Positions 6,776-61,171 of a stretch of 64,000 bases of DNA are shown here, piece by piece. The notes under the pieces were generated by a model, which saw only the letters and a list, made by a program, of their open reading frames with translations, was not told where the DNA came from and searched no databases. The translations under genes were made by a program, and so were the position numbers. Position 1 is the stretch's first letter. Every line of letters starts with the position of its first letter. The DNA comes from Candidatus Omnitrophota bacterium (lineage in GTDB: Bacteria > Omnitrophota > Gorgyraeia > Zapsychrales > Zapsychraceae). The stretch is taken from assembly GCA_018062515.1 (NCBI GenBank), contig JAGOSC010000005.1, positions 880 to 64,879 of the forward strand, written 5' to 3'.

Positions 6776-6834
6776 TGACACAAGATACAAAGTCACAAGT
6801 CACATGTGTCATTGTGACCTGTGTCTTGTGTCTG
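6776..6834. repeat. heptamer-built imperfect inverted repeat (GTCACAA-type), copy 2
   Basis: GACACAAGATACAAAGTCACAAGTCACATG-TGTCATTGTGACCTGTGTCTTGTGTC. It lies directly after the iPGM-like stop. Confidence 0.6.
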
Positions 6835-6856
6835 ATATGAAAGGACATAATCACTC

Positions 6857-8083: not shown

Positions 8084-8120
8084 TCAATCCATACAAATTC
8101 TATTTGGAGGATTTTCATAC

Positions 8121-21822: not shown

Positions 21823-21851
21823 TTGACAATGGATCGACTTTAATGTATACT
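21823..21851 (+). promoter_or_regulatory. near-consensus sigma70-type promoter (TTGACA-17 bp-TATACT) upstream of giant operon
   Basis: TTGACA at 21823-21828 and TATACT at 21846-21851 with a 17-bp spacer. It sits in an AT-rich 236-bp intergenic region ~170 bp before the gene A start. Confidence 0.45.
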
Positions 21852-22018: not shown

Positions 22019-25000
22019 ATGATGATTTTTAAAAGAAATAAAAGAAATTTAACCCGAAAAATAACTTCCACCTTTGTCTTATTTTCATTTATTTTCTCAT
22101 CAATACTACCTCCTCAAGTCTCGGCGCAGAGCGTATTCCATTTACCTATACCTGGGACCCTGTTTAATGTTACAAATACCTTTAATCCTTTTATCATTCA
22201 AGGGCTTACTGTAGATCCGCAAAATCCTCTTCATTTCAGTTTTATTATTGACACCGGCGACACGCAAACAAACGATCCAGACGCTTTCCGCTTAGAATCT
22301 ACAAAACTAGTCAAATATTTCTTAGCATCCTTAACCGTTCCCGAAGATCAAATGTGGGTTAACCTTTCTCCGTATGAAGGCAACCGCATTATTTCGGACA
22401 CATTTGGTCAAACCGAAATGGGCCGTGACTTATTAGCTCAAGATTATATTCTCAAACAAATGTCGGCTTCTTTAACGTATTCAGAAGAAGAATTGGGTGA
22501 AAAATTTTGGCACAGGGTCCACCAACGCGCAAAAAAAGAATACGGCGTTAAAGATATTCCTTTAAATACTTTTAATAAAGTATGGATCATTCCTCAGAAG
22601 GCAACCGTTTATGAACATGACGGCAGCGCGTATGTCGTCAATAGCCGGTTAAAAGTAATGATGGAAGAAGATTACTTAGCCTTAAACAAAAATATCGGTG
22701 AGCAAGCTTTTGGTATGAATAATGTCAAGCAAGATGAGGCGGAATCCACGAGTAAAGTTACTTCCGCCATCATTAAAGAAATTATTATCCCGGAACTCGA
22801 GAAAGAAGTGAATGAAGGCAGCCATTTTGCCAATTTGCGTCAAATTTATCAGTCGATGATTTTAGCGACCTGGTACAAAGTGAATTTAAAAGAATCACTT
22901 TTAGGAAAAGTTTATATTGATCAAAATAAAGTCCAAGGAATTGATTTAAACGACAAAAACGCGAATCAGAAAATTTATGAACAATATTTAGCCGCCTTTA
23001 AAAAAGGTGTTTACAACTATATTAAGGAAGACTACGATTCAGCCACTCATAAGTCAACACCTCGTCAATATTTCGCCGGCGGATTTGTTCCAAAAACCGA
23101 AGATAATGCGACTTTAGCAGAATTGATCACACGAGAGAAGACCACTCGTTTAGCCGCTACGGATCAGGCAGCTTTAACTCCGAAAGGAAACCAGATTCGA
23201 GCTGATTTCGCTTTATTAGAAGACTTAACCGATGAAGATGCTCCAAAGGTACAAAAACCGATTGAAAAAATTGAAGACGCGCAGATAGCTGTGGACCCTA
23301 ATTGGGTTGAGGACTATTTGGAAAATCTTTTCCCTGAAAACAGCTTTCCTAAACCAGTCAAACAAGAACCAGTCATTATCAGCAAAGAAAGAAAAGAATT
23401 AGAAGACGAATTAATCGCCAATCGTTCTCAATTCTCGGGCTCTAGAATAAATCGGAATATTAAGGAAAAAACAGGGCTTGACGTTCCCGAGGACACTGTC
23501 GATTATTTCGTCGAGCATAGTGGAACCCTCCCTGGATTAAATCACCGTGCTGACCGTTCCCAGGTTATAGGGCAACTTATCCGCAATCATCGTCCTTATG
23601 AAATCTCTAAATTATTTGCCTTATCAGAATCCAAAAATTTTGAAAGAAAATATTATCCTGCCTGGATCCAAGCTTTATCAAAAATATTTACTTTTTTGAA
23701 AGATAAAAATTCAACCATTAATACAGAATTAACCGTTCAAGTCAATTTAGACGGAATTCTTTTAATTAAAGACGGCTCGGGAGAAGAACTCAAGGCGTTT
23801 CAGAAATTGGATCAATTGCACACGGAAAAAGCTTCCGTCGGTGCACTGGCCCTTCAAATTGTCAAATTATTAACCCATGATTACGACGGTTTGGAACTCA
23901 CCAACACTAAAGAATTGTCAGATGATTTAGTATCCATCTTTAATATTTTCGGAATCAAGCCGACGGTGATTAATGATGCGTGGATGCAAACTGTCCTGGG
24001 ATACGGAGATTCTTCATTAAATCTTCAAGCTCTAAAAGAAGGCGTTGAAGTAACTGAAGCTGATGTCGACACTTATCTTTTCCGTCTGGACACAGAAAAA
24101 AGTTTAGCTCGTCAAGCCGGAGAGACTGTATATCTTTCTACGCGCTCAGAAGCCGTCGCTGAAATGATTAAAGAAAATAAATATGATTCTGCTCTTTTAG
24201 CCTCCATCGATGAAAAGGCTTTAACACCGGAAATTCTTACTGCTTTTGGCGGAAATGTAACGGCCGCACAAACGGTCGTGGCCGAGCGTCTTGAGGCTAT
24301 GCGCGTCGCTGATCCGAATGCCACCGTCGAGCAAGCTGTCGCCCGTTTAGCTTGGGAATATAAGCCGCGCGATATTCAAAACGTTTTTCCTGGAGACAAC
24401 TGGAAATTTATGTTTTTGGCCGCCAAAGCCGGCATGAAAGCTCCGATTCTTTTATTAGACTTGGAAGACGCAGTTGCGACAACTCGTAAAGAAATTGCCC
24501 GCGGTGTTATCGTACAATTGATCCGGGCTTTTAAAGGTGAAGGATTAACACAAGATGAATTTGATTTCTTGCAGAAGAACGCGCTTCAGGCTGATGATGA
24601 AAAATATCCGATGACTAGTTTCTTTACACAAAGTCTTGTCGACGGAAAAACTGTTTATACGTTAAATCCTGAAAATCAATTCCATAAAGATCAAATGGTT
24701 CTTTTCCGCCCGAATAATTTAAGAACAAAGTGGTCGGCAGGGGATTATTCTCAAGTTTTTCGTAAAGTCGGTCATTTGGTAGACGGTATTTATATGCCTA
24801 AAGTAGAAGGCCCAGAAGATATCAAAATCGGCGCGTCTATTTTACGCGCCATTCAGAAAGAACAAAACTGGGTCGTTGGTCGTCACAAAATTTTTGTTTT
24901 AACCGAACTTCCCGGCGCTGTTTTGACCGCTGAAAATATTTTAAAAATAGCTCCTGAAGTTGAAGAAGTTCAATTAGGAGTCGTCGATTACACCGCAGCG

Positions 25001-28000
25001 ACGGGTGGAAAAAATCAAGTTCAAATCGAACAATTTCCATTTATGCGTTATGCCTTATTACGCTTGGTTGAAGCCGCTAATAATATAGGGAAATCCGCCG
25101 GTTTAGGTATTACCGTTCAATTTACTCCAGAAGCAACAGCCGAGGATACAGTCAAGGCTATTAATATTGGCCTTCATCGCAAATGGAGCGTTCATCCAGC
25201 GCATTTGAAAGGCATGGAATCATTCATCGGAAAATTCCCAAAGATTGTCCGAAAAGATATTCAATATGATGAACTACAAGGATTTGATTTGGTACAGCTA
25301 GATCAATACGCTAGTGAAAGCCGTCCAATTTTAGCTCCTAAAGTTTTAACACCTAAAGATGTGGTTTTATCCAGAGCTGTGGTCACTGTTTCATCCGGAA
25401 ATATTGATGGGCTTAAAAAAGCTCTGGATTCAAATGCTGATACTATTATTTTGGATTTCGGGAAAAAAGAAAATTTGTCTGAAATTAAAAAAATATTAGT
25501 TCAGGCTAAAACAACAAAGAGTATTCTTGTTGTCGATGAGCTTGATTCCCTACAATCAATTAAACAAATTGTAACTGAGTTAAATGGATATTTTCAAGGA
25601 TTTAACCTGAATAACATACAGAATGCATCAACAGTAAGAGATGTGGATGGATTGTTATCAGAAGCAGAAAGTGATTTGGGATTAAACGCAGGCAGCTTAA
25701 AAATTGCCGTCAGCTTTAATGACCCGCAAGTGGTCGAGGAGCAATCCCGCTATCTCGGCACCGATCCAGCTAAAGCTCTTTTGTATTCCAGTCAACGCCT
25801 CAGCTGGGCCATCTTGAATTTGCCTACCATGCCGACTGAAGATTTAGATGATCCGGAAACGAGAGGATACAATTATTATCATTCTTTATTTATTGCCATG
25901 ACCGCTCATGCCGAAGTCGATTCCATCGACGGTTATAGCGCGGATGAGAATTTAACAGAACAAGTTGCGACCTCAGCCATTTGGGGATTTCAAGGAAAAC
26001 TAGCTAACTTGAATCAAGTTGATGAAATTACTGAAGCCATGAGCCCGCAGCGAGCTGGAATTATGCCAGAATTTTCTACTCCAGAGGAACGTAAAGCTTG
26101 GTTAGCTACTGCCGAAGGAAAAATTTATGTAGCACGTTGGAAAAATTCATTAGAACGAGATTTGGAACTGATGGATCTGTATGCCGAAGCGGATCAAGAA
26201 CGGCAATTAGGTGCGGTAGGTTATAAGGATCCTTTAACCGGCGCTATTGAAATCGTCGACGCTGCTTCAGCTCGAATTCCATTCCGACAATTAGAAAAAG
26301 CTTTAAAGACAAATCAATTAACCGATACGGAAAAAGTTCGATATGCAAAATCACGAGAAAAATTACTTTTAGCCATGCGTCCAGGCGGACGAGAAGGCAG
26401 CGGTGAAAAAGTTTTTGCCGGGCAAAAAATTACAGCTCCGGCCATTGTGATGCGTCCTTGGATGGTTAATGCGTTTGCTAAAGATGGCGATCAAAACCGT
26501 TATCATTTAGATGAAGCTTATGCCAACGCCTCAAAATTTAAAGGATTAGTTGCTCATGGATTATTGACGGTAACTAAGGCTTTAAGTTCTTTAAAAGCTC
26601 AATTACCGGCTTATAAAATTGAAGAAGTCGACGACGCTAAATTCTTAGCTCCTGTACGCTTTAATGATACGATTACCCCGGTCATTGATGTTACGAGTGT
26701 CGACAATGAAAAAGCCAATGTAAAAATTAGTGTAATCAATCAAGACGGAAAAACAGTCAGTGAAATCAAAGTTTTATTAATAGAAAGCACTGATTCTCAA
26801 ATCATTCCAAAAATTAATAATGATTCTTTAAAATCAGCAGAAAAGGTGCCGGCTTCTATTCCGGCCGTCATTTACGATTTTACTGATCCACAAAGTCCTC
26901 GAGAACAAACGTTCAAGCAGGAAATCACATCCAGTTATTTAGAAAATGTTCAAGGATCTAATTTGATTACAAGCCGGGATTTATTAAGTCAATTAGCTGC
27001 CTTTAAAATGATGGCCGGTACTTCCGCCAATGCCGTCCCAGGCCACATATTATTGAATGCAACAAATGTAAAATTCGGAGCTGAAATTCATTTAGGTGAT
27101 GTATTGACCGCCAAAGCTACTGTTCCTGCAGCTGATCAAATTAAATTGACTAAAGACAATCTTCCTAAAGTTCCAGTCACGATTGAAATCACGAATCAAA
27201 ATGGAGAAATGGTTTTAAAAGGACAAGTATTAAAACTCATGGAACCGGGTAAAGATCGAGCGATGCTGGCCAAAAAACCATACCTTCTGCCAAGAGGAAA
27301 AATTGTTACATCGCCGGATGAACTTCCAACACATATGGAAGCATATGTAGTCCGACGCGGTGAGCATGGTGACCCAATTGATGCGTTTAAAAAATCCATT
27401 CAACCCGTTCCCGATGTGGGCGATTATGAAGTCCTTGTCCAAGTTATGGCTGGAGGATTAAATTTTAATGGAACATGGGCCCTTCAAGGTCTTCCCATTT
27501 CTCCATTTACTTATCCTTTGAATAAATTCCACGATGAACAACGCTTAGGTAGTGATGCTTCAGGCATTGTTGTGGCCGTTGGCAAACATGTCACACAATA
27601 TAAAATTGGTGATCAGGTTGTTATGGCTACCGGTGAAGATGACCGCGCTGAAAAAGATCCTGATCATGGCGATACCATGCAAAAACGAACGTTTGTTATC
27701 ACCGGGTATGAAACTCCGGATGGAACGTTCGGTCAATTTGTCGCTTTGGATGAACGTCAAGTACATCCGAAAGAGGCAAATATGACTTGGGAACAAGCCG
27801 CCAGTTATCATTTAGTCGCCGACACAGCTTGGCGAGATATGAAATACAAACTGGGTGTTAAAAAGGGAGATACTGTATTAATCTGGGGGGCATCAACAGG
27901 AGTAGGAGCTTTTAATGTCCAGATCGCTAAATATTTAGGAGCCAAGAATATTGTGGCGGTTGTTTCCAGTGCTTCAAGAGCGGAACAAGCCAGAAAATTC

Positions 28001-29941: not shown

Positions 29942-29957
29942 TAAGGGACGCAGCTAA

Positions 29958-44100: not shown

Positions 44101-45560
44101 TAAAAATCACAAATGATCATCAGTTTACGGCAACATTATTCGATGGAAGTTCAGTCGAAGTTGTTGTCATCAATAAGGAAATTCCAACAGCTAAACCGGT
44201 CACGGACGTAGAAGAAACGGAAATTCCTCAAACTGCTTTAGCCGTGCCAACAAAACTAGGCCCATTGCATCGATCAAATATTCCCGTCGTTGAAGGCGTT
44301 TGGAGCGATGATCCAGAAATTCGAAACCGTGCTCTACAACACTATGCTTTAGCTGGAGACATATTGTTAGAACAGGTCATAAAAACGAGTCCAGTACTGG
44401 GACGATTTATTATTCCGGTTTCGAATGCCGTTTCTCCTCATATTGAACACGCCACTGTTGCCTCAGCTGGAATTGCTTTAACACCCGAACATTTTGAACA
44501 AGCCTGGGAGGCTAATGGAAACCCTCATCGTTCCAATGTACCGGAAGACGTCCGTGCAGAAGAATTTGAAGTTATAGTAACAATGCCCGATGGAAGTAAG
44601 CGAATTTTGGATATTCTTCGTGATAAAAAGGATGACTTTGAAGCTGGCGATATTGTCCGAAGAAAGATAGACGTCTCACACACGTTGGTTGAAGCATGGA
44701 ATAAAAAAGCTAAAACCAACCCTAAAGCCAAAGATCAAGAAGCAGAATGGTTAAATATGACCATAAAACAAATTCTTAATCCGCCGTTTGCTTCAAATAT
44801 TTTTCCAGCTAATGCGATTGTGATAAAGGTTCAAAACAGAAATAGTGAATTGGACCGAGGTATTATTGAACTTGATCAAGAATTAAATATTTACGTGAAG
44901 GTTCTCGACGTCACCCCATTTAATCAACAAACTGTCGACGGAAAATCATTCATTAAAGCGGATGTCATCGTTAAAGATAAAGAAGAAAACATTCTCATCG
45001 ACAGTATCGTCACAGTCATGAAACCGCTGACCATCGCTCGTCATATTAATGAATACAGTGAAGCGGTGATTCAGCAAGTTGAAGTTTGGACCGACGACAT
45101 TCAAGCGGCTCACAAAGCGATTTCCGCAGCGGCTAAAGATAAAACAAATGGTATTAATGTCGTACTGCCTGTCCGTGACGGAGCGAATGGAACAAAGGTT
45201 TTCTTTACGATGGTGACAATCGAAGGCGGCGTCAAAGTTCTCGTTGAGTTAATTCAAAATCCAAAAGCCGCGGTTGATAACGCTTCGCTCAGCCAATACG
45301 GCGGTATCGACCTTAATCCAGCGCATTTGGATTTGCAAATCAAGCGTGATGGACGAGGAATTCCGCTTCCGGTTAATCAACAGCCAATCATCAATATGCA
45401 TATCGACGGTTTTTATCCGATTATTATTGAAATGACGCCAGTGAATTTGCCGATGTTGCTCGGTTTCGCGGATGAAAATATGCCTGCGGATGAAACAGAT
45501 GATTATTCTCAATCAGAATTAAACGCCAGAGAACCTGAAGATTTAAGTTATTTAAATTAA
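35142..45560 (+). CDS. giant secreted mosaic protein C (3472 aa): signal peptide + shared N-module + AMP-forming acyl-CoA synthetase + acyl-CoA dehydrogenase + methylmalonyl-CoA-mutase-like catalytic region + B12-binding domain + shared C-module
   Basis: GTG start immediately after the B stop. AMP-binding motifs GYGLTEGTS and TGDLGSIDKDGYIKITGRLKD. ACAD YGQSEPHSGSDVGG. Mutase RYGSYGTAEESNANLK...GFSIAFDLPTQNGYD is co-linear with the MCM large subunit. B12 motif RILVAKPGLDGHDVGA (DxHxxG) at ~43700. C-module YGGIDLNPAHLDLQIKRDGRGIPLPVNQQP at 45298-45560. Confidence 0.85.
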   Translation: MIIQFKKFQLKFTYKFLCTVINIAFISTCVLPPSYAQVLSLPQPGTMLNVSPVYTPPMIKGLTIDQENPLHFQFIIDTGNEQYKDNDQLREESTRLIKYFLASLTVPENEMWVNLSPHEKDRIIPDGFGQTEMGRDLLAQDYILKQLTASLIYPEKELGAEFWKKVHDRAWKEFKTKEIPLDTFNKVWIVPEKAVIYEHERSAYVLESHLKVMLEEDYQALISNTSSTSADNQKLKDDNRQLTASIMKEIIIPEIEREVNEGKNFTNLRQIYQSMILATWYKMNLKESLLGQIYVDQNKLIGIDLDDKNVKDKIYAQYIEAFKKGVYNYIKEDYDPDQQKTVPRQYISGGFSTVGKDNATLVDLVGREIIKSSAGYVSADQYKRISKGLKPSGDQFRTDVQLLENGNNGIINADQSMLVKIDDALQKNPSQKVHTVKGYTPAGNPIEDVLTYQDISDQSNQFAHVLKNAGIEKGDRVAVMSPVSGLEMIASLGIWKAGAVRVPFKTQWTSNEIKKYLTQTTPEAMVILNVYYDQHLLSILNEFKDLKVYIISSGETISSTPHVMTFQNSLINQTTDFLNISSDPRDLVQLAISTGTTGESKIVKQTQENFYFSTQEYSEWLDDAPQGPVVSTLPPGTYGSHSILGTVLRGRPLYIVPRLPKNQTTDEYTQTLSETLKRTNAKILFGVPTQFQALAMTGEKFPGLIGLSRGAALRDVKQLFESVTGGRVIEGYGLTEGTSSVTNPINRDKPGTVGIPSKDTTFKVINPSTQKELPIGEEGELVLKGPQVMAGYWEDPVGTKAAFTEDGFLRTGDLGSIDKDGYIKITGRLKDIIISGGDNVIPSEVEKIIKTNAAIEEVTVVGISDPGRFPDDPAFAELVEHWGEVVVAFVVPKKGMNTLNLEPSIREFAKKNLAAYKVPKKVVVLNKLPLLGDLFKIDRQQLIRGDNDNAVLVIPSAIKNIENIKAKLVLNFMINETLRNGLISQIDGEKLIPSVAIDDEQITVAKKVSDEEYELSGTKAAVVNGGRASFYIVFAQLNGKSKAFLVDNPKGITKKSVPTMGLAENNIAQVQFNRVRAKLITDNLDDSEILKAVQNKENKIIRALAISEAQRIYKMGEKYAAERRAFGQSINKFPSLKRLMDGIQTDVENINASPNPTAMLVDIANRVLQIFAARGFENNTPAVKIWREAQALHAIVTYRQSLTKTTPENISLDPEEVFKKGSWEDFGLTPDQISLKSKIRNFAENIVAPMYEELDRDGQYPLSILKKMGDAGITKPGYPKEVGGEEADTLSWAIVVEELVKAAPAFGIFSGVPHTASVPILKSGTPEQKEIVAQVVRGEIPLSYGQSEPHSGSDVGGIKTTAHLTKRDGVEGYVINGEKIWIGSATVAPWLVLLAKTGEATDRDLNKFAFFLVPFRDQDGKFQKGIEVHEMDLLGMRGIGNSHIIMKDVFIPKENILGEVGKGFKTAMHAMDSGRIFVSSRGLGVISHAVENAKEALKEALRENPNLPHAQNYISQIDLMEAERLSVRAMLQKTSDMNDRGKRMTYETAIMKWIAGEVAADIAQRSYDLIHTISYNPSRWAHSERVLRDSRQIRIGEGTPQIMQRIAGLKIRRQMKKKLTHLSSDIILQDALKQILDEKENDSVPTRLNILFNIALAAYLKAIKDGQFDITPVEPYGIELDLANLEALRMRVNDFQKMLTQMAQSGQPFPYGNAVQIFMNQKYVEAETIVHNIFTQLSFKTELEEIKDYAMIASLQVEELRKRFKETGGAITREEAQQIVKGAKPEEVAVVLEQIAYQSSLYGPVNDPAINRVDPKIYESLIGIPGQAPFVRGLFPSVTQRAAGRWPTVRRYGSYGTAEESNANLKKQLEAGVTGFSIAFDLPTQNGYDTGHPLAVGEAGRVGIAINTLQDMEDLFDGLPLEKISTSMTINPTAPILFAMYVAAARKKGVPDKLIAGSVQNDSLKEYTARNTYVLPYKGMMRMTTDVFRWTKDNLPRFNTITISGYHIRESNVDAVKEIAFTITNALQYVAELKRKGLSRDEIAGSLATMAWFINLKMNTFEEVGKLRALRRVWSKIVRDGLGIKPENVTDPKLKDVYQKATNARVATWSGGSEVRLPYATTLNFARNAIRAFNAPLSGVQSWDGAAFDESIGIPTDFAQEEAMLRLFAAQSETGLMELDDPFGGSYFLEAETNRIEQGIWNELSELSQKDSFLDVLQFMVDERTRLTDQDRIDLEGGQRKIVGYNISTDGADAYPQPKARPMNTENFDVKQGKRLKKVLETRDNDAVQSALDELEKALKNETENVLPYIFKAVEVYATVGEISDRMRRIYGASDGKTPWNAQPVWKDLKDKEWTPPIQEKPEIFDQDIRNFIETQKNLIGNSYQEIYDRGIARGYFLAGDMPYVRHLHVEERPGEYPYTRGIIKQRPEKLNNISGYLLREAGMDGMQELALSLFAAKKEIEKGNTPSERADIANQIRIVLSSSDNFMEETARIFLARRMWAEMLKEMGITDENALQLIVGVKTDATTYTEDKHWLNISRGTRQAYQAYLAGVDPQDIIITRFDAPYGHTDQTRLAEQIAKDTLDVFRYELPKKVQNPLSGMFALEAKIETMEGELKAELTKLEDLSSDKKSISISAESEMKALIPVTNVTGSTGVPTWLTPSLANYLITSLLHSQAVQLAKVTAGLTPKVGENIKTSSTKYFPPMNTEAMGMKLLPPSEQVTIDALASDSEDLRIAIADAWFNQAANLYTKLLGALHLNNSNRHITKLLRGLAAANLSVNAEQFSKIAEKWSIISEGDQFTIQTDNGSQLNIIRDTDHQGKMGIELAGNVSEIMRYVSQYTLKNKMTKKDKLRILVAKPGLDGHDVGARTIANGFRDAGFDVIYTGLQNTPEQIVETARQENIDVIGLSILSNAHNSIGPKVASLLNKNGMDDVFVAMGGMIPDDDQRNLFRKSAVNAIYIAGTTMQKIVDDINHWNEWRGKSDKIKITNDHQFTATLFDGSSVEVVVINKEIPTAKPVTDVEETEIPQTALAVPTKLGPLHRSNIPVVEGVWSDDPEIRNRALQHYALAGDILLEQVIKTSPVLGRFIIPVSNAVSPHIEHATVASAGIALTPEHFEQAWEANGNPHRSNVPEDVRAEEFEVIVTMPDGSKRILDILRDKKDDFEAGDIVRRKIDVSHTLVEAWNKKAKTNPKAKDQEAEWLNMTIKQILNPPFASNIFPANAIVIKVQNRNSELDRGIIELDQELNIYVKVLDVTPFNQQTVDGKSFIKADVIVKDKEENILIDSIVTVMKPLTIARHINEYSEAVIQQVEVWTDDIQAAHKAISAAAKDKTNGINVVLPVRDGANGTKVFFTMVTIEGGVKVLVELIQNPKAAVDNASLSQYGGIDLNPAHLDLQIKRDGRGIPLPVNQQPIINMHIDGFYPIIIEMTPVNLPMLLGFADENMPADETDDYSQSELNAREPEDLSYLN

Positions 45561-45566
45561 TAAACC

Positions 45567-48500
45567 ATGAAAAAGAAAATTTTCCTTATGAAAAAGTTTG
45601 TGTCTATATTAATTCTTTGCGCATTTACAATGAACACCATTGTTCCGCCGAGTTTGGCGCAGAGCATATCGTCAACGATCCTACCGCCGGTAGGTTCAAT
45701 GCTAACCATGACACCATCGTTTGTTCCGATACAAATCAAGGGTCTAACCATCGATCCCGAAAATCCTTTGCATTTTGAATTTATCATCGATACCGGCGAT
45801 TCAAAAATTGTAAACGATGAAGAATTGCGCGCCGAAACAACAAAACTGGTTAAATATTTTCTTACATCGCTGACCGTTCCGGAAGAAGATATGTGGGTCA
45901 ATCTTTCTCCTTATGAAGGAAATCGTATTGTTACCGACGGATTCGGACAAACGCAAATGGGTCAGGATCTCTTAGCGCAAGATTATATTCTAAAACAAAT
46001 CACCGCATCATTAATGTTCCCTGAAAAAGAGTTGGGCAAAAAGTTCTGGGATAAAATTTATCAGAGAGCAGAACAAGAATACGGAACTAAAGATATTCCA
46101 ACGAATACATTTAATAAAGTATGGATCATTCCGGAAAAAGCCACGGTTTATGAGCATGACGGCAGTGTTTTTGTTATCGAAAGCCGTTTAAAGGTTTTAT
46201 TGGAAGAAGATTATTTTGCCCAAAGAAAATCTGAAGGAGCCTCCGTCGATCCAAATAAATCTGTGTATACCGACATCGTTCGAGAAATTTTAATTCCGGA
46301 GATTGAAAAAGAAGTCAATGAAGGACAGCATTTTGCCAAACTGCGTCAAATTTATAATGCGATGATCTTAGCGACTTGGTATAAAACCAATCTGCAAAAA
46401 TCCGTCTTAGGACAAATTTATGTTGATCAAAATAAGTTGGAAGGCATTAACGGCGAGAATAAAAACGCTAAGTCAGATATTTATAATCAATATCTCAAGG
46501 CTTTTAAGGCCGGCGTTTATAACTATATTAAAGAAGACTATGATTCGACAACTCGGTCAACGATTCCCCGACAGTACTTCTCCGGTGGATTTGCCGCTAC
46601 TTCAGATAAAGCGGCATTATCCACCGTAGTTAAGGAATCAAACCTGGGTCAAAACAACACGCCGTTATCCGACGAGGACTCAGCACTCATCGCAGATGCA
46701 TTATCCGCGCGAGGCAAACAGTTTAATACAGATATCCTCCTTAGAGAAGCCGTCTCGGGGATAACTTCCGGCGATGAAGCTATTCTTAGTTCTTTTACTG
46801 AAGATGAAATTGTGTCACGAATTCTAAATACTCCATATGATCCGATAAAAATTGGTCAGCAAATGCGGGCATGGTACGCTGATGGTAACCTCGACGCTGA
46901 TATCTTAAAAGCAACCTTGACCAATTTAAGCCGCCGTGTTGTGTACGTAAAAAGTACAGCTGATTTAAAAGACTATGAAAAAATGAAGCCTTTTTTGATC
47001 AAGACCTGGGCGCTGCTTAAAGAAGCGAATGACTCTCAGTATACCGAAAGCATTTCGATCATTGAGAGAACCATGGCCTACTCCTTATATATTTCGGATC
47101 CAAAATTATTTTATGCCGAACCGATTGAATCCATGGTCGCTGATTTAAGAAAAATTAAAGACAGCACCGCGGATGAACGTATTAAATTTGATGAAGCTTG
47201 GACACTGATTTCCAAACGCTACAGCCAAAAAAATCCGCGAGATATTTTTTATATCGCCCGGGCGATGAAACGTCCCAAGGCCTCAGATATTGTTAAAAGT
47301 TCTTTATTTAAAGATTTCATGGAATTGCGGGATGCCAAAGATCCGCTCGACCCTCAAAAAAATGAACGTTACACGCCGACGGAAAATGAGATTCAAGAGG
47401 CCATGTCGATCGGGTTCAAAGATAAATTAGAAGCCCGTGAATATGTCATTGCCAAACGAGACGCCCAATATGATGACGCATCCGTACTTACGGGAATAGG
47501 GACTTTTGTGGATCCAAAAACCGGAAAAGAGACAAAAGTTATGGTTGTTGCTTTACAAAATGGAAGTGATATTAAGGAATTATTTGAAAGAAATGCCGGT
47601 TTAAACCGCCCGTGGGGATATTGGAAAGCGATCCGCGCTTTTCGTTTGGCGGAATCTACAGAGTATAGAATTCCAATTGTCACTTTTGTTGACACGAAGG
47701 GGGCGGATAACACATTACCGTCGGAAATCGCCAATCAATCGGGCGTGGTTTCCTACGCCATACAAGTTCAACAAGAGCTGACGGTTCCGTTTATTTCCAT
47801 CATCAATATCGACGGCGTAAGTGCTGGAGGCATGGTTGTCACTCAAGGCGGCGCATTATATATGATGGATTATTCGAATCGATATTTAGCTGCTCCGGCA
47901 GGGTCTTTAGATATTATCGGCAAAGCAAAAACGACTATTCCCGTCGCTGAGCAACGCGGCGTGAAAGATACAATCGGAATGCAAATCATTGAAAAAGAAG
48001 TGCAAAGTGTGTGGGGAGATGCTTTTCATGCGGACGCGAAAAGATCATTGGAAGAATTAAAAACCATTTCCGGAATTATCCCTGAAGCGCTCGGTGGTGC
48101 GCATCGATTCCCTGAACTTTCTTATGAAATGATAGGCGATGTCATTCACAATTACTTAAAGGAAAATGCCAACAAAACAGTTGCGCAGCTTAAAGCCCAG
48201 CGTCATGACTTTTTCCGTCGATTAGGTGGAATTCCTGAAAAAGATTTTAGAATCGTCGACGATCAAGATGTCCCAACCTTGACCAAATCCATCATCACAC
48301 CGGATGAATTTGCACAGTTGGTGGAAACTATTCTTGACAATAAACAAAATACCGAACGTATGCTCCATGCGTATCGCCAGTACACTTTTACACTGAAATC
48401 AGCGAAACAAAAAAAAGAGGTTGTCGCTGTATGGATGAAAGTTTTTAGAGCTAACCGCAGCTGGTTTGATAATCGCTGGATGGTCAAAGTTTTAAATGCT

Positions 48501-51500
48501 TCGTTAACAGAATTTGAAAAGAAGGGAACGCAAAATGCTAAAACTCTTAAAGAGGCGATGATCAAGAGTTTCTTTCCGGAACCGCGCAGTATTGCTGATC
48601 GTCTCGAACAATTTGTCGACCGCAAAAAAGATGGAAGTTTGGAGATTATTGAAGAATTAAATGCGAATTTAGCCGAGACACCCATCATCGATTTTGATGA
48701 AACCATTCATGAAGCCTATCCCTTTTTGAAGATTGATGGCCAGGATATTGCGGCCAAGTTTGACCAATTCCGCAAATTAACCGGCTCATTAACCGGCGTT
48801 TGGACCGGTTATGTTAAAATCGGCGGAGTAAAGACGATGCTGGTTTTAAAAGATCCACGCTGGTTGAACGCCAGCGCAACAACGGCCGTCATCGGCGAGA
48901 AAGTGACCCGCGCCTTGGAAGATGTGCGTCAAAAATTTGATAAAACCAAAGAAAAAATTCCCGTGATCATGTTGACGACGGCGAGCGGTGCTCTTCAGCA
49001 AGAAGGCCAGCGCGCTATGGACCCGTTAAATAAAAAACTCGCTGGATTGGTTGAATTGAAGGAACGAAATATTCCCGTCGTGATTTTAGGTGCCTACGAA
49101 GTTTTCGGTGGTGATAGCGCCTCCGACGCGACATATCAAGATGCTGATCTTTTACTATTAGAAAAAGGGACAAGAAAAGGATTCACCGGCCACCCGACGC
49201 TGACCGGAGAAAATGATCGACGTAAGAAAAAAGGTGTTAAAGATACTTCGCAAAATGAGGTTGTGCCATTAACCGTTTTGCCTTTTCCATATCAGACTGA
49301 TCAGTTCTTAGACCGGCTTGGATTTATCGATGGAATTGTGACTGTCGAGCAAGAAACGCCTTTATTACAAGCTTTCTTACAAGACGTGACTAATAAAGAA
49401 CTGACTGTTAAATCCGAAGAAATTAAAGAACTTTTAAAAACCTTTAAAGACAAACGTGAAATGCGAGTAAAGCTTGTACGCGCCTTGGAACGAAAACCAT
49501 TTAAGACGACGTTTCAAAATGGAAATGAGGCTGAAGTTTTTAATCTGCGAAATAAGGCAAGACTATTGATGAATCAGCCAGGCATTGGCTGGCGTTATGA
49601 AAAGCCCGCAACAGGCCAAGAAACGGTGAATTCAGATGAAGCCATGCTGACCAACGTTTATGAAAATGCTGAAACGATGTATCAAAATTTGCCGCAAGAT
49701 ATTGAAAAATTTATGATGAGTACGGCATCGAAAATTAACGGCGGTGAAGCTGTAATGAATGATCAAAAAGCGATTACGGACATGATGTCCTTAATCGGAG
49801 AAATTTATGAAAAAGAAATGGACGGCCTGACGACGAAAAATTATCACAATCATATGCATAATCTTTCTGTCTCATTTGGAAGTTTAATTCTCGCCCAAAA
49901 TGCAAATTTAATTAAAGATAAGAATGATTTGATTATCGTCTTTTTAGGATCATTGTTTCATGATTTTCATGTGCGCGATGTCCGTCCTTTGCGTGAACGC
50001 GGCCCGGCAACGCCCGCCTTGGTTAATGAAACATTAGGTATTGAAGGATCAGGTGGGCAGCTCCCTGATTTATTAGCAATAGATGGATTCGTTTATAAAA
50101 ATCCAGCTATTGCCAATGCGCGTTATGGAGTGGTCGGAACCGATGTTAAAAAATCGGCCCGGGAAATCTATCAAACTTTAACTGGTAATGATGGTTCAAA
50201 TGGAATTTATAATGAAATTGCCGCCATTATACGGCGAACTGATTTTTCATCGGATCTCCCGCCAGCTATCGATAAGTATAAAAACCGTACTTTTGTTGTC
50301 CGCGATTTTATGGATGCAAAGGTTAATGAATGGTCACAAACGAAATCAGAAATATCCGACACTGATTTAACGCAACTCATTAATCAGGTGGAAAAACAAT
50401 ACCAGGATATTTATACTGATATGGCTCGGGACAAAGAATTGACTCCTGTAGGAAAAAGGGAAGTTTCCGAGAAGTGGGTAACACGTCAGCGTAATATTGA
50501 ACTGGCCTTCTTAAATGCTTTAACTAAAGTCAGATCTTCTCGACGATTAAATGTTTACCAAATAGCCAATCGTGTTGAGCTGGCCGATCAATCTGTTGCC
50601 TCGTGGATCGGATCCCCGGATATTGCCAAAAATATCACGTTAGGACTTAAAGAGGAACTGCCTTTTGTCAGCATCGAAGCTAATTATCCCTTATTTTATA
50701 CACCGCAATTATTACCCACACGGGTTTTATCACGCTTAAGAGATCTTCCCCTCAATTTAAGAATTAATTTCTTAAAAAATATGGAATATTTTGCCAGTTA
50801 TAGTACTGATTTCGCTAAAAATCTGAATGATGAGCAGAAAACGAAAATAAATGAATTTGTTTATAAGATGATGTTAAATTCTTTAGGAGAGTGGGACAAG
50901 ATTGAAGAAGATGTCCTTATGGAATTACGACTATATGTAGATGAAGAAGGTCAGATTAAACAACAAAGAATGGATCCTGAAGTAGTGCAGGGACTGAGAA
51001 AATCTATTATCGGAACAGTCTTTAACCTACGTGACATACATTCAATGGTTGCACAAAGAACAGTGAAAAAAATAAACTTGGCAGCAAATCAAACGATCAT
51101 TGAAGAAGGTGATGTCATTAATCACAAGAATTCAGAAGGTCTTTACATTATTATTTCCGGGGAAGTTAAGGTTATTGTCGGTGGAAGTCCTGTGGCAACG
51201 CTTAAGGCGGGGGACCATTTCGGAGAATTGGCCATCATCAGTCGCCTACCGCGCAATGCCACTGTTGTTTCCACTAGTCCTACAGTATTGGTTAAAATGC
51301 CGAGCAGATTTTTACATGGATTAAGATTAGTCAGCGATGAATTTAGTGATGCATTATATGCTGAAGCCAGAGCTAAAACGCGAAAAGGAACATCGATTCT
51401 GCCATATTGGGTTGAATCAGAAATTGTCATGAAAATGGCGCGGTCAAACCAAATATTAAATGAACAATCTAAAATTTTAGCTTGGCAGATGCCACAGTTT

Positions 51501-52110: not shown

Positions 52111-52182
52111 TATAATCCTGAATATTTTCGTTATAATACTACACAAAAGTTATTCCAACCTATAACGTCAGGATTATATATG
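52111..52182 (+). promoter_or_regulatory. imperfect inverted repeat carrying TATAAT boxes, overlapping start codon of downstream TPR gene
   Basis: TATAATCCTGA(atatttt)CGTTATAAT ... CTATAACGTCAGGATTATATATG. The right arm contains the ATG at 52180. Confidence 0.3.
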
Positions 52183-52773
52183 AACCCATCGATCAATTTC
52201 AGCGACCTACGAAAATCTCTGGATGAAGCAATCACGTTCGCCGAGCTCGAAAAAGCCGAACAAATTGCCGATCAAGGTTTAGAATTTGCCCTTTTTAAAG
52301 AAGACTTGGGCGAAATTATGTACTTCCAAGCACAACACGCCATTCTCGATGAGAATTTTAATCTCGCTATTCGATTTCTAAAAGAAGCGGTTGAATATAA
52401 CCCCTTCGACGGAGCCGCGTACAATGATATTGCTTTGTGTATGATTGAAATCGAAGAAGATGTTCACGAAACAATGTCTTATTTCGACATTGGCATAGAA
52501 GTAGAACCCGACTATGCCACCATTTTCCATAATAAAGGTTGGTTTTTGAATCAACTCGGACGCCCGCAAGAGGCAATTGCCTATTTAAATAAGGCATTAA
52601 CGATTGAACCAGATAGAGCGGTGACTTTCGAGAATTTAGCCGACGTTTATATAAAACTCGGTGAAACCGCCAAGGCCATCTCGGCCTATCAGACGTCCTT
52701 ACGTCTTCTCGATCAATCCTATCCTGATATTCGTCAGCAAATTTTCGAAAAACTCAAAATCCTGATGAGCTAA
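52180..52773 (+). CDS. TPR-repeat protein
   Basis: Three to four TPR-like 34-aa repeats (AIAYLNKALTIEPDRAVTFENLADVYIKLGETAKAISAYQTSLRL). Confidence 0.6.
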   Translation: MNPSINFSDLRKSLDEAITFAELEKAEQIADQGLEFALFKEDLGEIMYFQAQHAILDENFNLAIRFLKEAVEYNPFDGAAYNDIALCMIEIEEDVHETMSYFDIGIEVEPDYATIFHNKGWFLNQLGRPQEAIAYLNKALTIEPDRAVTFENLADVYIKLGETAKAISAYQTSLRLLDQSYPDIRQQIFEKLKILMS

Positions 52774-53814: not shown

Positions 53815-53908
53815 TACCAAAGATCGTGATAGATTCTGTGTTGACGATGTGTACAATATCAATTATATTATTTACACATATCCACGGTCTAAACGCTTAA
53901 AAAAATTC

Positions 53909-61166: not shown

Positions 61167-61171
61167 TCTGA

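What the first reader, a model, noticed from the sequence alone, without database searches (positions are those of the whole stretch)
24350..49200. Cargo domains of the giant proteins together resemble an ethylmalonyl-CoA / methylmalyl-CoA type acyl-CoA rearrangement toolkit, yet sit on exported proteins
Domain assignments by motif are as follows. A carries a CitE-like lyase of the malyl/citramalyl-CoA lyase family (LDLEDAV), a MaoC double hotdog like mesaconyl-CoA hydratase, and an MDR of crotonyl-CoA carboxylase/reductase type (VMAGGLNFNGTWA plus Rossmann fold). B carries two ACAD units with C-terminal extensions, as in methylsuccinyl-CoA dehydrogenase-like enzymes. C carries an AMP-forming acyl-CoA synthetase, an ACAD, and a B12-dependent acyl-CoA mutase with DxHxxG. 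D carries carboxyltransferase alpha and beta halves, as in acetyl- or propionyl-CoA carboxylase, with no biotin carboxylase or BCCP seen. This is nearly the full enzyme complement of the ethylmalonyl-CoA pathway (Ccr, Ecm, Mcd, Mch, Mcl) and propionyl-CoA assimilation, fused into four polypeptides. The catalytic signatures look intact (CitE DLED, ACAD xTExxxGSD, mutase AFDLPT plus DGHDVG, CT GGAHR), so these are probably active enzymes and not decoys. CoA-, ATP- and B12-dependent enzymes behind Sec signal peptides are paradoxical. This suggests either delivery into another cell (host, prey or partner), a non-canonical use of the signal-like N-terminus, or a membrane-tethered metabolon. A stand-alone citramalate synthase (cimA, 8121-9689) in the same window makes citramalate/mesaconate-type C5 acid metabolism a plausible context.
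Basis: partly seen in the sequence, partly recalled or inferred. Interest (0 to 1): 0.92.

Follow-up and report, generated by a model that had tools for sequence, protein, structure and literature searches.

The report
Exported cysteine-free acyl-CoA enzyme giants
Four adjacent giant genes of an Omnitrophota bacterium fuse apparently active acyl-CoA enzymes, including a B12 mutase and a carboxylating reductase, to a secretion signal and to end-pieces shared by thousands of proteins in this phylum, and contain no cysteine after the signal, which suggests these bacteria run cytoplasm-type metabolism outside their own cytoplasm.

Summary
ORFs A-D (22019-52088) carry the reported domains. These are a CitE/HpcH lyase, a MaoC hydratase and a Ccr-type reductase; two ACAD units; an acyl-CoA ligase, an ACAD and an MCM-type B12 mutase; and AccA/AccD carboxyltransferase halves. 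D also has a cyclic-nucleotide-binding domain. Catalytic residues are intact in most units, but three units are degenerate partner-like copies.

The specific ethylmalonyl-CoA pathway labels (Mcd, Mch, Ecm) are not supported. The set fits generic EMC/3-hydroxypropionate-type chemistry, and cimA belongs to a Thr/Ile cluster.

A-D are four members of an Omnitrophota-restricted family with at least 8,251 sequence clusters. The architecture is a Sec-type signal peptide, a ~320-aa N-domain with no fold match in the PDB, variable cargo, and a ~60-aa C-terminal motif. Cargo elsewhere includes glycolytic, gluconeogenic and glyoxylate-cycle enzymes.

The mature A-D proteins have 0 Cys in 9,870 residues, where about 82 are expected. 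In relatives, cysteines at GAPDH, ICL and PPDK-like catalytic motifs are retained.

I read these as real exported enzymes that need a cytoplasm-like milieu, most likely that of a host or prey cell. This last step is inferred, not shown.

The parts
21823..21851 (+). sigma-70-like promoter candidate (TTGACA-17-TATACT) upstream of A
   Evidence: It matches 11 of 12 consensus positions. This is a consensus match only, not shown to function.
22019..22129 (+). A: Sec-type signal peptide (n-region KRNKRNLTRK, hydrophobic core, VSA|Q site)
   Evidence: The family-wide statistics are n-region charge +3.1, H15 hydropathy 2.3, and an A-Q site in 86 of 94 members.
22130..23221 (+). A: conserved N-domain of the Omnitrophota carrier family
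   Evidence: The AF2 model has no fold match in the PDB.
24401..25243 (+). A: CitE/HpcH-type acyl-CoA lyase domain. It is remotely malyl-CoA-lyase-like.
   Evidence: PF03328, E 1.6e-15. The best PDB hits are 4l7z, 5ugr, 6kin and 4l9y, at 35 bits or less. The Arg, Glu and Asp residues are kept.
26420..26719 (+). A: MaoC hot-dog domain, a PhaJ-type (R)-specific enoyl-CoA hydratase
   Evidence: PF01575. PDB hits are 5cpg and 1iq6. The GDQNRYH motif is present.
27326..29038 (+). A: enoyl-CoA carboxylase/reductase (Ccr/ECR family) with a ~170-aa insert of the propionyl-CoA synthase type
   Evidence: TIGR01751 scores 341.7 bits. PDB hits are 4gi2 at 244 bits and 6eqo, which aligns through the insert. 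The domain has 0 Cys, against a mean of 7.7 in 119 stand-alone Ccr homologs.
29648..29854 (+). A: C-terminal family motif (GGIDxN..L.LQIKRDG.G.PLP..Q....I.GF.PVII...P.NLP.LLG)
   Evidence: AF2 gives an extended chain with almost no secondary structure.
29958..31142 (+). B: signal peptide plus N-domain
31440..32957 (+). B: ACAD unit 1 (VLCAD/FadE-like, catalytic Glu in FEG kept) with a C-terminal helical extension
33255..34673 (+). B: ACAD unit 2 (35% identical to unit 1, catalytic Glu replaced by Gly) plus an ACAD9/ACADV_C-type extension. It is probably a non-catalytic partner.
34857..35066 (+). B: C-terminal family motif
35142..36362 (+). C: signal peptide plus N-domain
36486..37931 (+). C: AMP-forming acyl-CoA ligase
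   Evidence: PF00501 and PF13193, and NCBIfam
38148..38717 (+). C: degenerate ACAD (middle and C-terminal parts only)
38826..39959 (+). C: ACAD with a complete three-domain set and the GEG catalytic Glu
40608..42137 (+). C: B12-dependent acyl-CoA mutase TIM barrel, MCM-type pocket (Tyr, Arg and Tyr-His kept)
   Evidence: PF01642 at 492 bits. PDB hits are 2xij, 8gju and 1req.
42438..43016 (+). C: second, degenerate mutase barrel fragment (MutA-like partner)
43701..44033 (+). C: B12-binding domain with DGHDVG (DxHxxG)
45291..45491 (+). C: C-terminal family motif
45567..46763 (+). D: signal peptide plus N-domain
47469..48227 (+). D: AccA-like carboxyltransferase alpha half
   Evidence: PF03255. 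PDB hits are 8uxz and 2f9y. It is 54% identical to the CT in L030.
48687..49382 (+). D: AccD-like carboxyltransferase beta half, without a Zn ribbon
   Evidence: TIGR00515. PDB hits are 9m70_A and 2f9i_B. It is 51% identical to L030.
51075..51317 (+). D: cyclic-nucleotide-binding domain with an intact FGELA...PRNAT cassette
51810..52010 (+). D: C-terminal family motif

Best explanation
**What it is (well supported).** A-D form one tightly packed operon, with gaps of 16, 0 and 6 nt. They are four members of a very large family of modular exported proteins, named only from Omnitrophota apart from a few likely mis-binned records. Each protein has:
- a cleavable Sec-type signal peptide;
- a ~320-aa conserved N-domain with no fold match in the PDB;
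- variable enzyme cargo;
- a ~60-aa extended C-terminal motif.

The cargo here is a coherent acyl-CoA set under selection for activity:
- an acyl-CoA ligase;
- two catalytic ACADs, plus degenerate partner units;
- a Ccr/ECR-type enoyl-CoA (carboxylase/)reductase;
- an (R)-enoyl-CoA hydratase;
- a malyl-CoA-lyase-like C-C lyase;
- an MCM-type B12 mutase;
- an AccA/AccD carboxyltransferase;
- a cNMP sensor.

**How it works (inferred).** The polypeptides leave the producer's cytoplasm unfolded through Sec, which is why every non-essential cysteine has been purged. The enzymes then work where ATP, CoA, NADPH, FAD with an electron acceptor, adenosylcobalamin and cyclic nucleotides exist. That place is most likely the cytoplasm of an attached host or prey cell. 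The shared N-domain and C-motif would serve as the common delivery or anchoring module.

There the proteins would activate short-chain acids, desaturate them, reductively carboxylate the enoyl-CoA, rearrange the carbon skeleton, hydrate, cleave, and move or remove carboxyl groups. This is EMC/3-hydroxypropionate-type chemistry. The exact substrates are unknown.
For: **Operon and architecture.**
- ORF layout and gaps.
- N-termini are 56-60% identical among A-D, and all four share the C-motif.

**Family.**
- 1,255 N-domain hits, almost all named as Omnitrophota.
- At least 555 genomic matches in Omnitrophota MAGs, with many paralogs per genome.
- 8,251 representative clusters, with the N-domain always at the N-terminus and protein lengths of 400-5,358 aa.
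- 77 complete ORFs have the C-motif close to the C-terminus.

**Export signal.** In 94 members the mean n-region charge is +3.1 and the hydrophobic core hydropathy is 2.3. An A-Q site is present in 86 of 94.

**Cys purge.**
- Mature A-D have 0 Cys. Their only 4 Cys lie in the signal segment. The other ORFs of the window have 0.83% Cys.
- 144 family representatives have 92 Cys in 250,505 residues.
- Stand-alone Ccr homologs have a mean of 7.7 Cys.
- Cysteines at catalytic motifs are retained in relatives: GAPDH SCTTN, ICL KKCGH and PPDK-like GICGEH.
- Cys exclusion is a documented adaptation of exported proteins (PMC2823432).

**Enzyme integrity.**

**Cargo needs a cytoplasm-like milieu.**
- Cargo elsewhere includes PGI, PGK, TIM, GAPDH, enolase, aldolase, FBPase, PEPCK, NDK, ICL, malate synthase, response regulators and an RNAP alpha-CTD.
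- In L030, the MeaB chaperone GTPase is fused to a mutase, a B12 domain and a CT in a 0-Cys polypeptide that ends in the C-motif.

**Lifestyle context.**
- Omnitrophota are inferred to be host-dependent or predatory (PMC10066038; PMC12583861).
- Related PVC bacteria (Chlamydia) secrete glycogen-metabolism enzymes (PMC4829429).
Against: - No experiment shows export, signal cleavage or delivery.
- I could not run a dedicated signal-peptide predictor.
- No secretion or injection machinery is conserved next to these genes.
- The N-domain has no structural relative that would suggest a translocation function.
- The C-motif model is an unstructured chain.
- ACADs need an electron acceptor (ETF), the CT needs a biotin carrier, and the mutase needs adenosylcobalamin loading. 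None of these is encoded in A-D.
- It is not obvious why delivering housekeeping-type enzymes into a cell that already has metabolism would help.
- Delivery of 1,700-3,500-aa proteins into another prokaryote has no precedent known to me.
- This acyl-CoA cargo is rare. I found one other lineage (L030), one fragment (P0241) and a few ACAD-bearing members. It cannot be central to the phylum.
Confidence: 0.4

Rival explanations
1. The proteins are exported but stay with the producer. They would work in its periplasm, on its surface or coat, or in a sealed contact zone with prey. There they would process metabolites and cofactors released from lysed prey, or supplied by transporters. In effect this would be an extracytoplasmic metabolic compartment.
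For: - The signal-peptide and Cys-purge evidence is the same as for the main explanation.
- The strong conservation of the N-domain and C-motif would suit anchoring to a conserved envelope structure, or head-to-tail assembly.
- V. archaeovorus predation is thought to release prey cytosol (PMC12583861).
- A 2026 preprint places the multi-enzyme content of Omnitrophota giant proteins on the periplasmic or extracellular face.
- Chlamydia runs glycogen metabolism in the inclusion lumen, a compartment outside the bacterial cell (PMC4829429).
Against: - ATP, CoA, NADPH, GTP (for MeaB) and cNMP are not known to be kept at useful levels outside a cytoplasm.
- Apart from the N-terminal signal, the only hydrophobic segment in A-D lies in the C-motif. 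It is Pro-rich, and I treat it as unlikely to span the membrane.
- No envelope-binding fold was detected.
Confidence: 0.25
2. The proteins are not exported. The hydrophobic N-terminus would be a membrane tether or assembly tag, and A-D would form a cytoplasmic membrane-associated metabolon that channels reactive acyl-CoA intermediates, as propionyl-CoA synthase does. The lack of Cys would have another cause, such as oxidative robustness of very long proteins.
For: - All the cofactor requirements are met at once in the cytoplasm.
- The reductase is related to the propionyl-CoA synthase fusion 6eqo, including its insert.
- The tight operon suggests stoichiometric co-assembly.
- Family cargo includes core glycolytic enzymes, response regulators and an RNAP alpha-CTD.
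Against: - The n-region carries about +3 charge. With the hydrophobic core and the conserved small-x-Ala|Gln site, this predicts N-in/C-out topology and cleavage.
- Ordinary cytoplasmic proteins in the same window have normal Cys content, 0.83%.
- The purge spares cysteines at catalytic motifs. That is the pattern expected from selection against free thiols outside the cytoplasm.
Confidence: 0.15
3. The enzyme-like domains are pseudo-enzymes. They would have been reused as ligand-binding, adhesive or structural modules of surface proteins.
For: - Three units are clearly degenerate: B ACAD2 lacks the catalytic Glu, and C has a truncated ACAD and a partial second mutase barrel.
- A large fraction of each protein has no recognisable domain.
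- The CitE-like domain is very divergent.
Against: - Catalytic and cofactor-binding residues are kept in the main copy of every enzyme type.
- The degenerate units correspond to known non-catalytic partner subunits, MutA and heteromeric ACADs. This comparison rests on my own knowledge.
- Relatives keep the GAPDH, ICL and PPDK-like catalytic-motif cysteines while Cys is almost absent elsewhere.
- MeaB is fused to the mutase in L030.
- The CT is 51-54% identical between distant carrier proteins.
Confidence: 0.05

Closest known systems
Multi-enzyme 'metabolic cluster' long proteins of Omnitrophota with signal peptides or TM helices (bioRxiv 10.64898/2026.06.07.730766; also West-Roberts et al. 2023, 10.1101/2023.11.21.568195)
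   Same: - Same phylum.
- Many unrelated cytoplasm-type enzyme domains are tiled in one polypeptide behind a signal peptide.
- The cargo repertoire overlaps: PGM/PMM, starch synthase, ROK, response regulators and HAD.
- Function is unresolved in both cases.
   Different: - Those studies treat proteins of 10,000 aa or more. In that catalogue most carry TM helices and only 9% are signal-peptide-only.
- The words 'acyl' and 'mutase' do not occur in the 2026 preprint, and 'CoA' appears only in its central-metabolism sections. 'CoA' and 'mutase' do not occur in the 2023 preprint.
- My term searches found no mention of a conserved N-terminal domain in either preprint. I did not search them for the C-motif or for cysteine content.
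- A-D are 1.7-3.5 kaa. Their only hydrophobic segment besides the signal lies in the C-motif.
Ethylmalonyl-CoA pathway (Ccr, Epi, Ecm, Mcd, Mch, Mcl1) and the 3-hydroxypropionate bi-cycle (Pcs, Pcc, Epi, Mcm, Mcl, Mch)
   Same: The enzyme superfamilies match: ECR, B12 acyl-CoA mutase, ACAD, MaoC hydratase, CitE-type lyase, carboxyltransferase and acyl-CoA ligase.
   Different: - None reaches an equivalog cut-off.
- The ACADs are not Mcd-like, and the hydratase is PhaJ-like rather than Mch-like.
- No epimerase, thiolase, reductase, BC or BCCP was found.
- The known pathways use separate soluble cytoplasmic enzymes without signal peptides.
Propionyl-CoA synthase (PDB 6eqo), a ligase-dehydratase-reductase fusion that encloses acrylyl-CoA (function from my own knowledge: Bernhardsgrütter et al. 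2018)
   Same: - The ECR-type reductase aligns with the 6eqo reductase domain across the ~170-aa insert that ordinary Ccr lacks.
- Both fuse consecutive acyl-CoA enzymes in one chain.
   Different: - Here the ligase is on another polypeptide (C).
- The hydratase is a hot-dog fold, not a crotonase.
- Pcs is cytoplasmic, to my knowledge without a signal peptide or conserved termini.
Secreted metabolic enzymes of Chlamydia (glycogen enzymes and phosphoglucomutase exported by type 3 secretion; PMC4829429, PMC9251005)
   Same: A bacterium related to the PVC group exports housekeeping-type carbohydrate enzymes to run metabolism outside its own cytoplasm. Overlapping enzyme types (PGM, starch/glycogen synthase) occur as cargo in this family.
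   Different: - Chlamydia uses T3SS signals on single enzymes.
- This family has Sec-type signals, fused multi-enzyme chains, and a shared N-domain and C-motif.
- No CoA-, B12- or ATP-dependent pathway is known to be exported in Chlamydia.
MARTX and polymorphic toxins (conserved delivery termini flanking variable effector cargo; from my own knowledge)
   Same: The layout is similar: conserved N- and C-terminal regions bracket swappable cargo, and domains are shuffled between paralogs.
   Different: - No RTX repeats were seen.
- No cysteine protease domain is possible, because there is no Cys.
- Export would use a Sec signal rather than T1SS.
- The cargo is anabolic and catabolic enzymes, not toxins.

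Membership tests
Ethylmalonyl-CoA pathway enzyme set | Crotonyl-CoA carboxylase/reductase (ECR with the CO2-pocket residues Asn, Phe/Tyr-Glu and His) | tested here: inconclusive
   TIGR01751 scores 341.7 bits, below the cut-off of 378.55. The best PDB hit is Ccr 4gi2, and the pocket residues are kept. The same residues and the insert also match the propionyl-CoA synthase reductase 6eqo.
Ethylmalonyl-CoA pathway enzyme set | Ethylmalonyl-CoA mutase (the Ecm clade of B12 mutases) | tested here: inconclusive
   The best matches are methylmalonyl-CoA mutases. NF006944 scores 520 bits, below the cut-off of 876, and the top PDB hits are 2xij and 1req. The Tyr/Arg carboxylate pocket fits either methylmalonyl- or ethylmalonyl-CoA.
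Ethylmalonyl-CoA pathway enzyme set | (2S)-methylsuccinyl-CoA dehydrogenase (Mcd) | tested here: not met
   The Mcd structure 6es9 ranks about 41st, at 111 bits. VLCAD/FadE-like 2z1q scores 213 bits. The extension is C-terminal, of ACAD9/ACADV type.
Ethylmalonyl-CoA pathway enzyme set | Mesaconyl-CoA hydratase (Mch) | tested here: not met
   Only PhaJ-type (R)-enoyl-CoA hydratases and AF1124 are hit. A second hot-dog half was not detected by Pfam.
Ethylmalonyl-CoA pathway enzyme set | Malyl-CoA/beta-methylmalyl-CoA lyase (Mcl1) | tested here: inconclusive
   The top PDB hits are all malyl-CoA lyases, but at 35 bits or less. NF041626 scores 32.9 bits, against a cut-off of 500.
Ethylmalonyl-CoA pathway enzyme set | Ethylmalonyl/methylmalonyl-CoA epimerase, thiolase, acetoacetyl-CoA reductase | tested here: not met
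   No such Pfam or NCBIfam domain is present in A-D. The C tail (residues 2990-3380) has no PDB or Pfam match.
Sec-exported protein with type I signal peptide | Positively charged n-region, a hydrophobic core of about 15-20 aa, and small residues at -3 and -1 | tested here: met
   The predicted cleavage sites are VSA|Q in A, SYA|Q in B and C, and SLA|Q in D.
Sec-exported protein with type I signal peptide | Actual translocation and cleavage | not testable with these tools
   This needs proteomics or reporter fusions. The Cys purge is indirect support.
Omnitrophota N-domain/C-motif carrier family (defined here) | N-domain directly after the signal peptide | tested here: met
   HMM scores for A-D are 705-750 bits, covering residues 1-407. 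The domain is at the N-terminus in all 150 listed representatives.
Omnitrophota N-domain/C-motif carrier family (defined here) | GGIDxN...LLG motif within about 130 residues of the C-terminus | tested here: met
   77 complete relatives also have it.
Omnitrophota N-domain/C-motif carrier family (defined here) | Near-absence of cysteine in the mature chain | tested here: met
   There are 0 Cys in 9,870 residues here. Across 144 representatives the Cys content is 0.037%.
Acetyl-CoA carboxylase carboxyltransferase (AccA/AccD) | AccA and AccD crotonase-fold halves with oxyanion Gly-Gly pairs | tested here: met
Acetyl-CoA carboxylase carboxyltransferase (AccA/AccD) | AccD Zn ribbon; biotin carboxylase and BCCP partners | tested here: not met
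   With no Cys there can be no Zn ribbon. No biotinyl or BC domain is present in A-D. The rest of the genome could not be searched.
Propionyl-CoA synthase-type fusion | Ligase, dehydratase and reductase in one chain | tested here: not met
   The reductase and a hot-dog hydratase are on A, and the ligase is on C. Only the reductase, with its insert, resembles 6eqo.

The most novel reading that the evidence does not exclude
Omnitrophota 'outsource' metabolism. They would export whole stretches of cytoplasm-type pathways as cysteine-free modular proteins. The pathways seen as cargo are glycolysis and gluconeogenesis, the glyoxylate cycle, glycogen metabolism and, in this genome, an acyl-CoA carboxylation and rearrangement route with a B12 mutase. 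A dedicated N-domain/C-motif delivery module would place these proteins in the cytoplasm of a host or prey cell, or in a sealed compartment fed by it. There they would run on the partner's cofactors for the benefit of the ultra-small predator.
Probability: 0.3. Interest if true: 0.95.

Novelty: new variant of a known kind. Interest (0 to 1): 0.82.

Why it matters
- **A new way for one cell to exploit another.** If these proteins are exported and active, a widespread uncultivated phylum runs CoA-, ATP-, NAD(P)H- and B12-dependent metabolism outside its own cytoplasm.
- **A possible function for a large protein family.** The family has at least 8,251 sequence clusters and no annotated function. 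These proteins take up a visible share of small genomes.
- **A simple marker.** Zero cysteine except at catalytic-motif positions can be used to find such proteins elsewhere.
- **Enzyme resources.** The proteins are naturally Cys-free versions of ECR, B12 mutase, ACAD, ligase and CT enzymes, which interest synthetic CO2-fixation work.
- **Direct testability.** Public V. archaeovorus proteomes (PRIDE PXD025008, named in PMC12583861) and simple export-reporter assays can address the question.

Tried and rejected
1. **C-motif profile search.** It returned only fragments of 123 aa or less, so it gave no cargo information. One such 'small protein' is the end of a frameshift-fragmented giant gene.
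2. **Joint alignment of N-domain proteins and C-motif fragments.** MAFFT placed the fragments on the N-domain's GIDL.D stretch. I rebuilt the alignment without them, so the N-domain/C-motif contact could not be modelled. The C-motif has low confidence in the P0081 model.
4. **C-motif on its own.** The model is an extended chain with pTM 0.31, not a folded sorting domain.
5. **An epimerase in the C tail (residues 2990-3380).** I suspected one by eye. There is no PDB hit even at E = 1 and no Pfam hit, so I dropped the idea.
6. **MeaB or another P-loop in A-D.** None was found.
7. **A biotinyl domain.** Only a stray 'EIVMKMA' in D, in the wrong context.
8. **An HD-type domain in D (residues 1290-1800).** I suspected it from an H..HD motif. 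There is no PDB or Pfam support.
9. **Conserved neighbouring genes, such as secretion machinery.** Clustering 481 flanking ORFs gave no family in more than 8 of 79 loci, and those present looked like housekeeping genes.
10. **Orthologs of the operon.**
    - The ECR search found one fragment, P0241.
    - The metagenome scan with the CT alignment found only ordinary AccA genes at 25-31% identity.
11. **cimA as pathway context.** I rejected this because cimA lies in a hom-thrC-lysC cluster.

Full report
**Observation**

The window holds four same-strand giant ORFs:
- A, 22019-29941 (2640 aa)
- B, 29958-35141 (1727 aa)
- C, 35142-45560 (3472 aa)
- D, 45567-52088 (2173 aa)

The gaps between them are 16, 0 and 6 nt. 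A sigma-70-like TTGACA-17-TATACT lies upstream of A.

- **A:** HpcH/CitE (residues 878-1025), MaoC (1468-1567), and an MDR that matches TIGR01751 crotonyl-CoA carboxylase/reductase at 341.7 bits, just under the 378.55 cut-off.
- **B:** two ACAD units plus an ACAD9/ACADV-type C-terminal extension.
- **C:** AMP-binding ligase (449-930), ACAD (1229-1606), MM_CoA_mutase (492 bits, 1823-2332) and a B12-binding domain (2854-2964).
- **D:** AccA-like (635-887) and AccD-like (1041-1272) carboxyltransferase halves.

Protein B and its flanks occur identically in an independent assembly, Logan SRR11088468. The locus is therefore not an assembly artefact.

**Catalytic residues**

- **Reductase.** The closest solved structure is Methylobacterium Ccr 4gi2. 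The NFN, GYET and GTHYAN segments that hold the CO2-pocket residues are kept. The second-best hit is the reductase domain of propionyl-CoA synthase 6eqo, which aligns through a ~170-aa insert that ordinary Ccr lacks.
- **Mutase.** It is closest to human and bacterial methylmalonyl-CoA mutases. The equivalents of Tyr89 (RRYGSY), Arg207 (ARNTY), Tyr243-His244 (SGYHI) and the DGHDVG cobalt-ligand motif are kept. I assigned these residues from my own knowledge of 1req numbering.
- **CitE-like domain.** It hits only malyl-CoA lyases, and weakly (35 bits or less). The Arg, Glu and Asp positions are kept.
- **MaoC unit.** It is PhaJ-like and has GDQNRYH.
- **ACADs.** B unit 1 is VLCAD/FadE/Bcd-like and keeps the FEG glutamate. 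The methylsuccinyl-CoA dehydrogenase structure 6es9 ranks only about 41st. B unit 2 is 35% identical to unit 1 but has Gly where the catalytic Glu should be.
- **Degenerate units in C.** C holds a truncated ACAD and a partial second mutase barrel. I read these three degenerate units as non-catalytic partner subunits, by analogy with MutA and heteromeric ACADs. That reading is inference.
- **Carboxyltransferase.** It keeps the Gly-Gly oxyanion pairs. It has no Zn ribbon, and A-D contain no biotinyl domain or biotin carboxylase.
- **cNMP domain.** It keeps the FGELA...PRNAT cassette.
- **Not found.** No epimerase, thiolase, MeaB or P-loop is present.

The toolkit is real and mostly looks active. 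It can only be called EMC/3-hydroxypropionate-type chemistry in general, not the EMC pathway specifically.

cimA (8121-9689, TIGR00977 at 738 bits) lies in a hom-thrC-lysC cluster. Isoleucine synthesis explains it.

**The carrier family**

All four proteins share two end-pieces. The first is an N-terminal ~400 aa that is 56-60% identical among them. The second is a C-terminal motif, GGIDxN..L.LQIKRDG.G.PLP..Q....I.GF.PVII...P.NLP.LLG.

- The N-domain finds 1,255 proteins in the 90%-clustered collection. Almost all named sources are Candidatus Omnitrophota.
- A profile search of 1.84 billion representatives finds 8,251 clusters, 6,507 of them at E of 1e-30 or better. The domain is always at the N-terminus, and protein lengths run from 400 to 5,358 aa.
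- A scan of GTDB species genomes gave at least 555 matches, all in Omnitrophota MAGs. Some of these are labelled 'uncultured Planctomycetales'. One genome contributes nine or more loci.
- In the 79 loci fetched I found 110 N-domain ORFs. 77 complete ones have the C-motif close to the C-terminus.
- The C-motif is predicted as an extended chain.
- No gene family is conserved next to these genes.

**Cargo across the family**

I ran Pfam scans on 74 cargo regions and 34 further full-length members. The families fall into these groups:
- **Glycolysis and gluconeogenesis:** phosphoglucose isomerase, phosphoglycerate kinase, triosephosphate isomerase, GAPDH, enolase, class I aldolase, FBPase and PEPCK.
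- **Glyoxylate cycle:** isocitrate lyase and malate synthase.
- **Sugar and glycogen metabolism:** PGM/PMM, UDPGP, starch synthase and ROK kinase.
- **Other enzymes:** NDK, glutamate dehydrogenase, proline dehydrogenase, ACADs and GH116.
- **Regulatory or nucleic-acid-related domains:** response regulators, PP2C and an RNA polymerase alpha-CTD.
- **Repeats:** HEAT.

Acyl-CoA cargo like that of A-D is rare.
- Locus L030 has one ORF with an AprA-like methyltransferase, MeaB (373 bits), a mutase, a B12 domain and AccA/AccD (51-54% identical to D), ending in the C-motif.
- The next ORF in L030 has the N-domain, a PPTase, an AMP-ligase, an acyltransferase, MaoC, HpcH and a crotonase.
- The only close relative of A's reductase is a 711-aa fragment with the reverse domain order.
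- A metagenome scan with the CT alignment found only ordinary AccA genes.

Domains are therefore shuffled among carrier proteins, and this cargo set is lineage-specific.

**Evidence for export**

The N-termini have the three parts of a Sec signal: KR-rich n-regions, a hydrophobic core, and VSA|Q, SYA|Q or SLA|Q sites. In 94 family members the mean n-region charge is +3.1 and the best 15-residue hydropathy is 2.3. An A-Q site is present in 86 of 94.

Apart from the N-terminal signal, the only hydrophobic segment in A-D is the Pro-rich stretch of the C-motif.

The strongest new result concerns cysteine.
- The mature parts of A-D contain none in 9,870 residues. Their four cysteines all lie in the signal segment.
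- The other ORFs of the window have 0.83% Cys. About 82 Cys are therefore expected, and the Poisson chance of zero is about 1e-35 by my arithmetic.
- 120 homologs have 26 Cys in 48,592 residues.
- 144 representatives have 92 Cys in 250,505 residues, which is 0.037%.
- Both L030 giants have none.
- 119 stand-alone Ccr homologs have a mean of 7.7 Cys each.
- Among the few retained cysteines are those at catalytic motifs: GAPDH SNASCTTNA (twice in one protein), isocitrate lyase KKCGH, and a PPDK/PEP-synthase-like GICGEH.

This pattern indicates two things. The cargo enzymes are under selection for activity. Free thiols are selected against, as documented for exported proteins (PMC2823432).

**Mechanism**

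The following is shown: the modular architecture, the operon, intact active sites, the signal features and the Cys purge.

The following is inferred: the proteins cross the inner membrane unfolded and then act where ATP, CoA, NADPH, FAD with an acceptor, AdoCbl, GTP and cNMP are present.

Omnitrophota are thought to be host-dependent or predatory ultra-small cells (PMC10066038; PMC12583861). Chlamydia secretes glycogen-metabolism enzymes and a phosphoglucomutase (PMC4829429 and PMC9251005). On that basis I consider action inside an attached partner cell the most likely resolution (0.4). Less likely alternatives are:
- an own extracytoplasmic or contact-zone compartment (0.25);
- a non-exported, membrane-tethered cytoplasmic metabolon (0.15);
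- pseudo-enzymes (0.05).

Weak points of the preferred reading:
- no conserved delivery machinery was found;
- ETF, a biotin carrier and B12-loading factors are missing from A-D;
- the benefit of delivering housekeeping-type enzymes is unclear.

**Comparison with the literature, and novelty**

A 2026 preprint on complete Omnitrophota genomes describes proteins of 10,000 aa or more as 'multi-enzyme metabolic clusters'. Most of them carry signal peptides and/or TM helices, and their function is unresolved. Giant genes in the phylum were reported earlier.

My term searches of the two preprints found no acyl-CoA cargo and no B12 mutase, and no mention of a conserved N-terminal domain. I did not search them for the C-motif or for cysteine content. 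Other library searches found no description of this family.

I therefore rate this a new variant of a recently recognised kind, with high interest. It is broader than they realised, and existing proteomes and simple assays can test it.

Noticed in passing
window 5572-6774 (with 2494-9689): The gene matches both cofactor-independent phosphoglycerate mutase (NF003242, 540 bits) and TIGR02535 'proposed homoserine kinase' (521 bits, above the cut-off). It sits between thrC/coaB-like genes and lysC/cimA. It is probably the non-canonical homoserine kinase of a Thr/Ile biosynthesis cluster.
   Followed up: partly
window 53849-55177: A full-length bacterial serpin (Pfam 425 bits) with a hydrophobic N-terminus lies about 1.8 kb downstream of D.
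   Followed up: no
window 59502-62569: An HTTM / vitamin-K-dependent gamma-carboxylase-like protein with its lumenal domain is followed by a PIG-L-type deacetylase-like protein. The latter has a signal-like N-terminus and no cysteine.
   Followed up: no
window 1-2012: A tyrosine recombinase (XerC/D or integron-integrase-like) lies in a stretch of only 33% GC, against about 40% elsewhere. It may mark the edge of a mobile element.
   Followed up: no
L021:6815-15143: One carrier protein holds two GAPDH units, each with SNASCTTNA. The catalytic Cys is kept, and the second Cys of the usual SCTTNC is replaced by Ala. The protein also has an ACAD.
   Followed up: partly
L030:1-21052: Two adjacent cysteine-free giants. 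The first fuses an AprA-like methyltransferase, MeaB, a mutase, a B12 domain and AccA/AccD. The second fuses the N-domain, a PPTase, an AMP-ligase, an acyltransferase, MaoC, HpcH and a crotonase. This is an acyl-CoA/ACP-flavoured cargo set in a different order.
   Followed up: partly
window 22937-22954 (A residues ~307-312) versus the C-motifs: The N-domain contains GIDL.D, which resembles the GGIDLNP start of the C-motif. The resemblance was enough to make MAFFT place C-motif fragments there. It may be chance or a trace of shared origin.
   Followed up: no
window 51414-51434 (D residues ~1950-1956): 'EIVMKMA' resembles the biotin-attachment motif, but the surrounding sequence does not look like a biotinyl domain.
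   Followed up: partly
window 52180-52773: A small TPR protein follows D after 91 nt on the same strand. No + strand terminator candidate lies in between, so it may be co-transcribed with the giants.
   Followed up: no
L081:1464-10348: A long-read contig shows a carrier gene broken into about ten called genes (PGI, PGM/PMM and others, ending in the C-motif). Many short 'C-motif proteins' in databases are therefore probably frameshift fragments.
   Followed up: yes
hits P0014 and P0073: Two N-domain proteins are filed under Heimdallarchaeota and Pacearchaeota bins. These are probably binning errors rather than true archaeal members.
   Followed up: no
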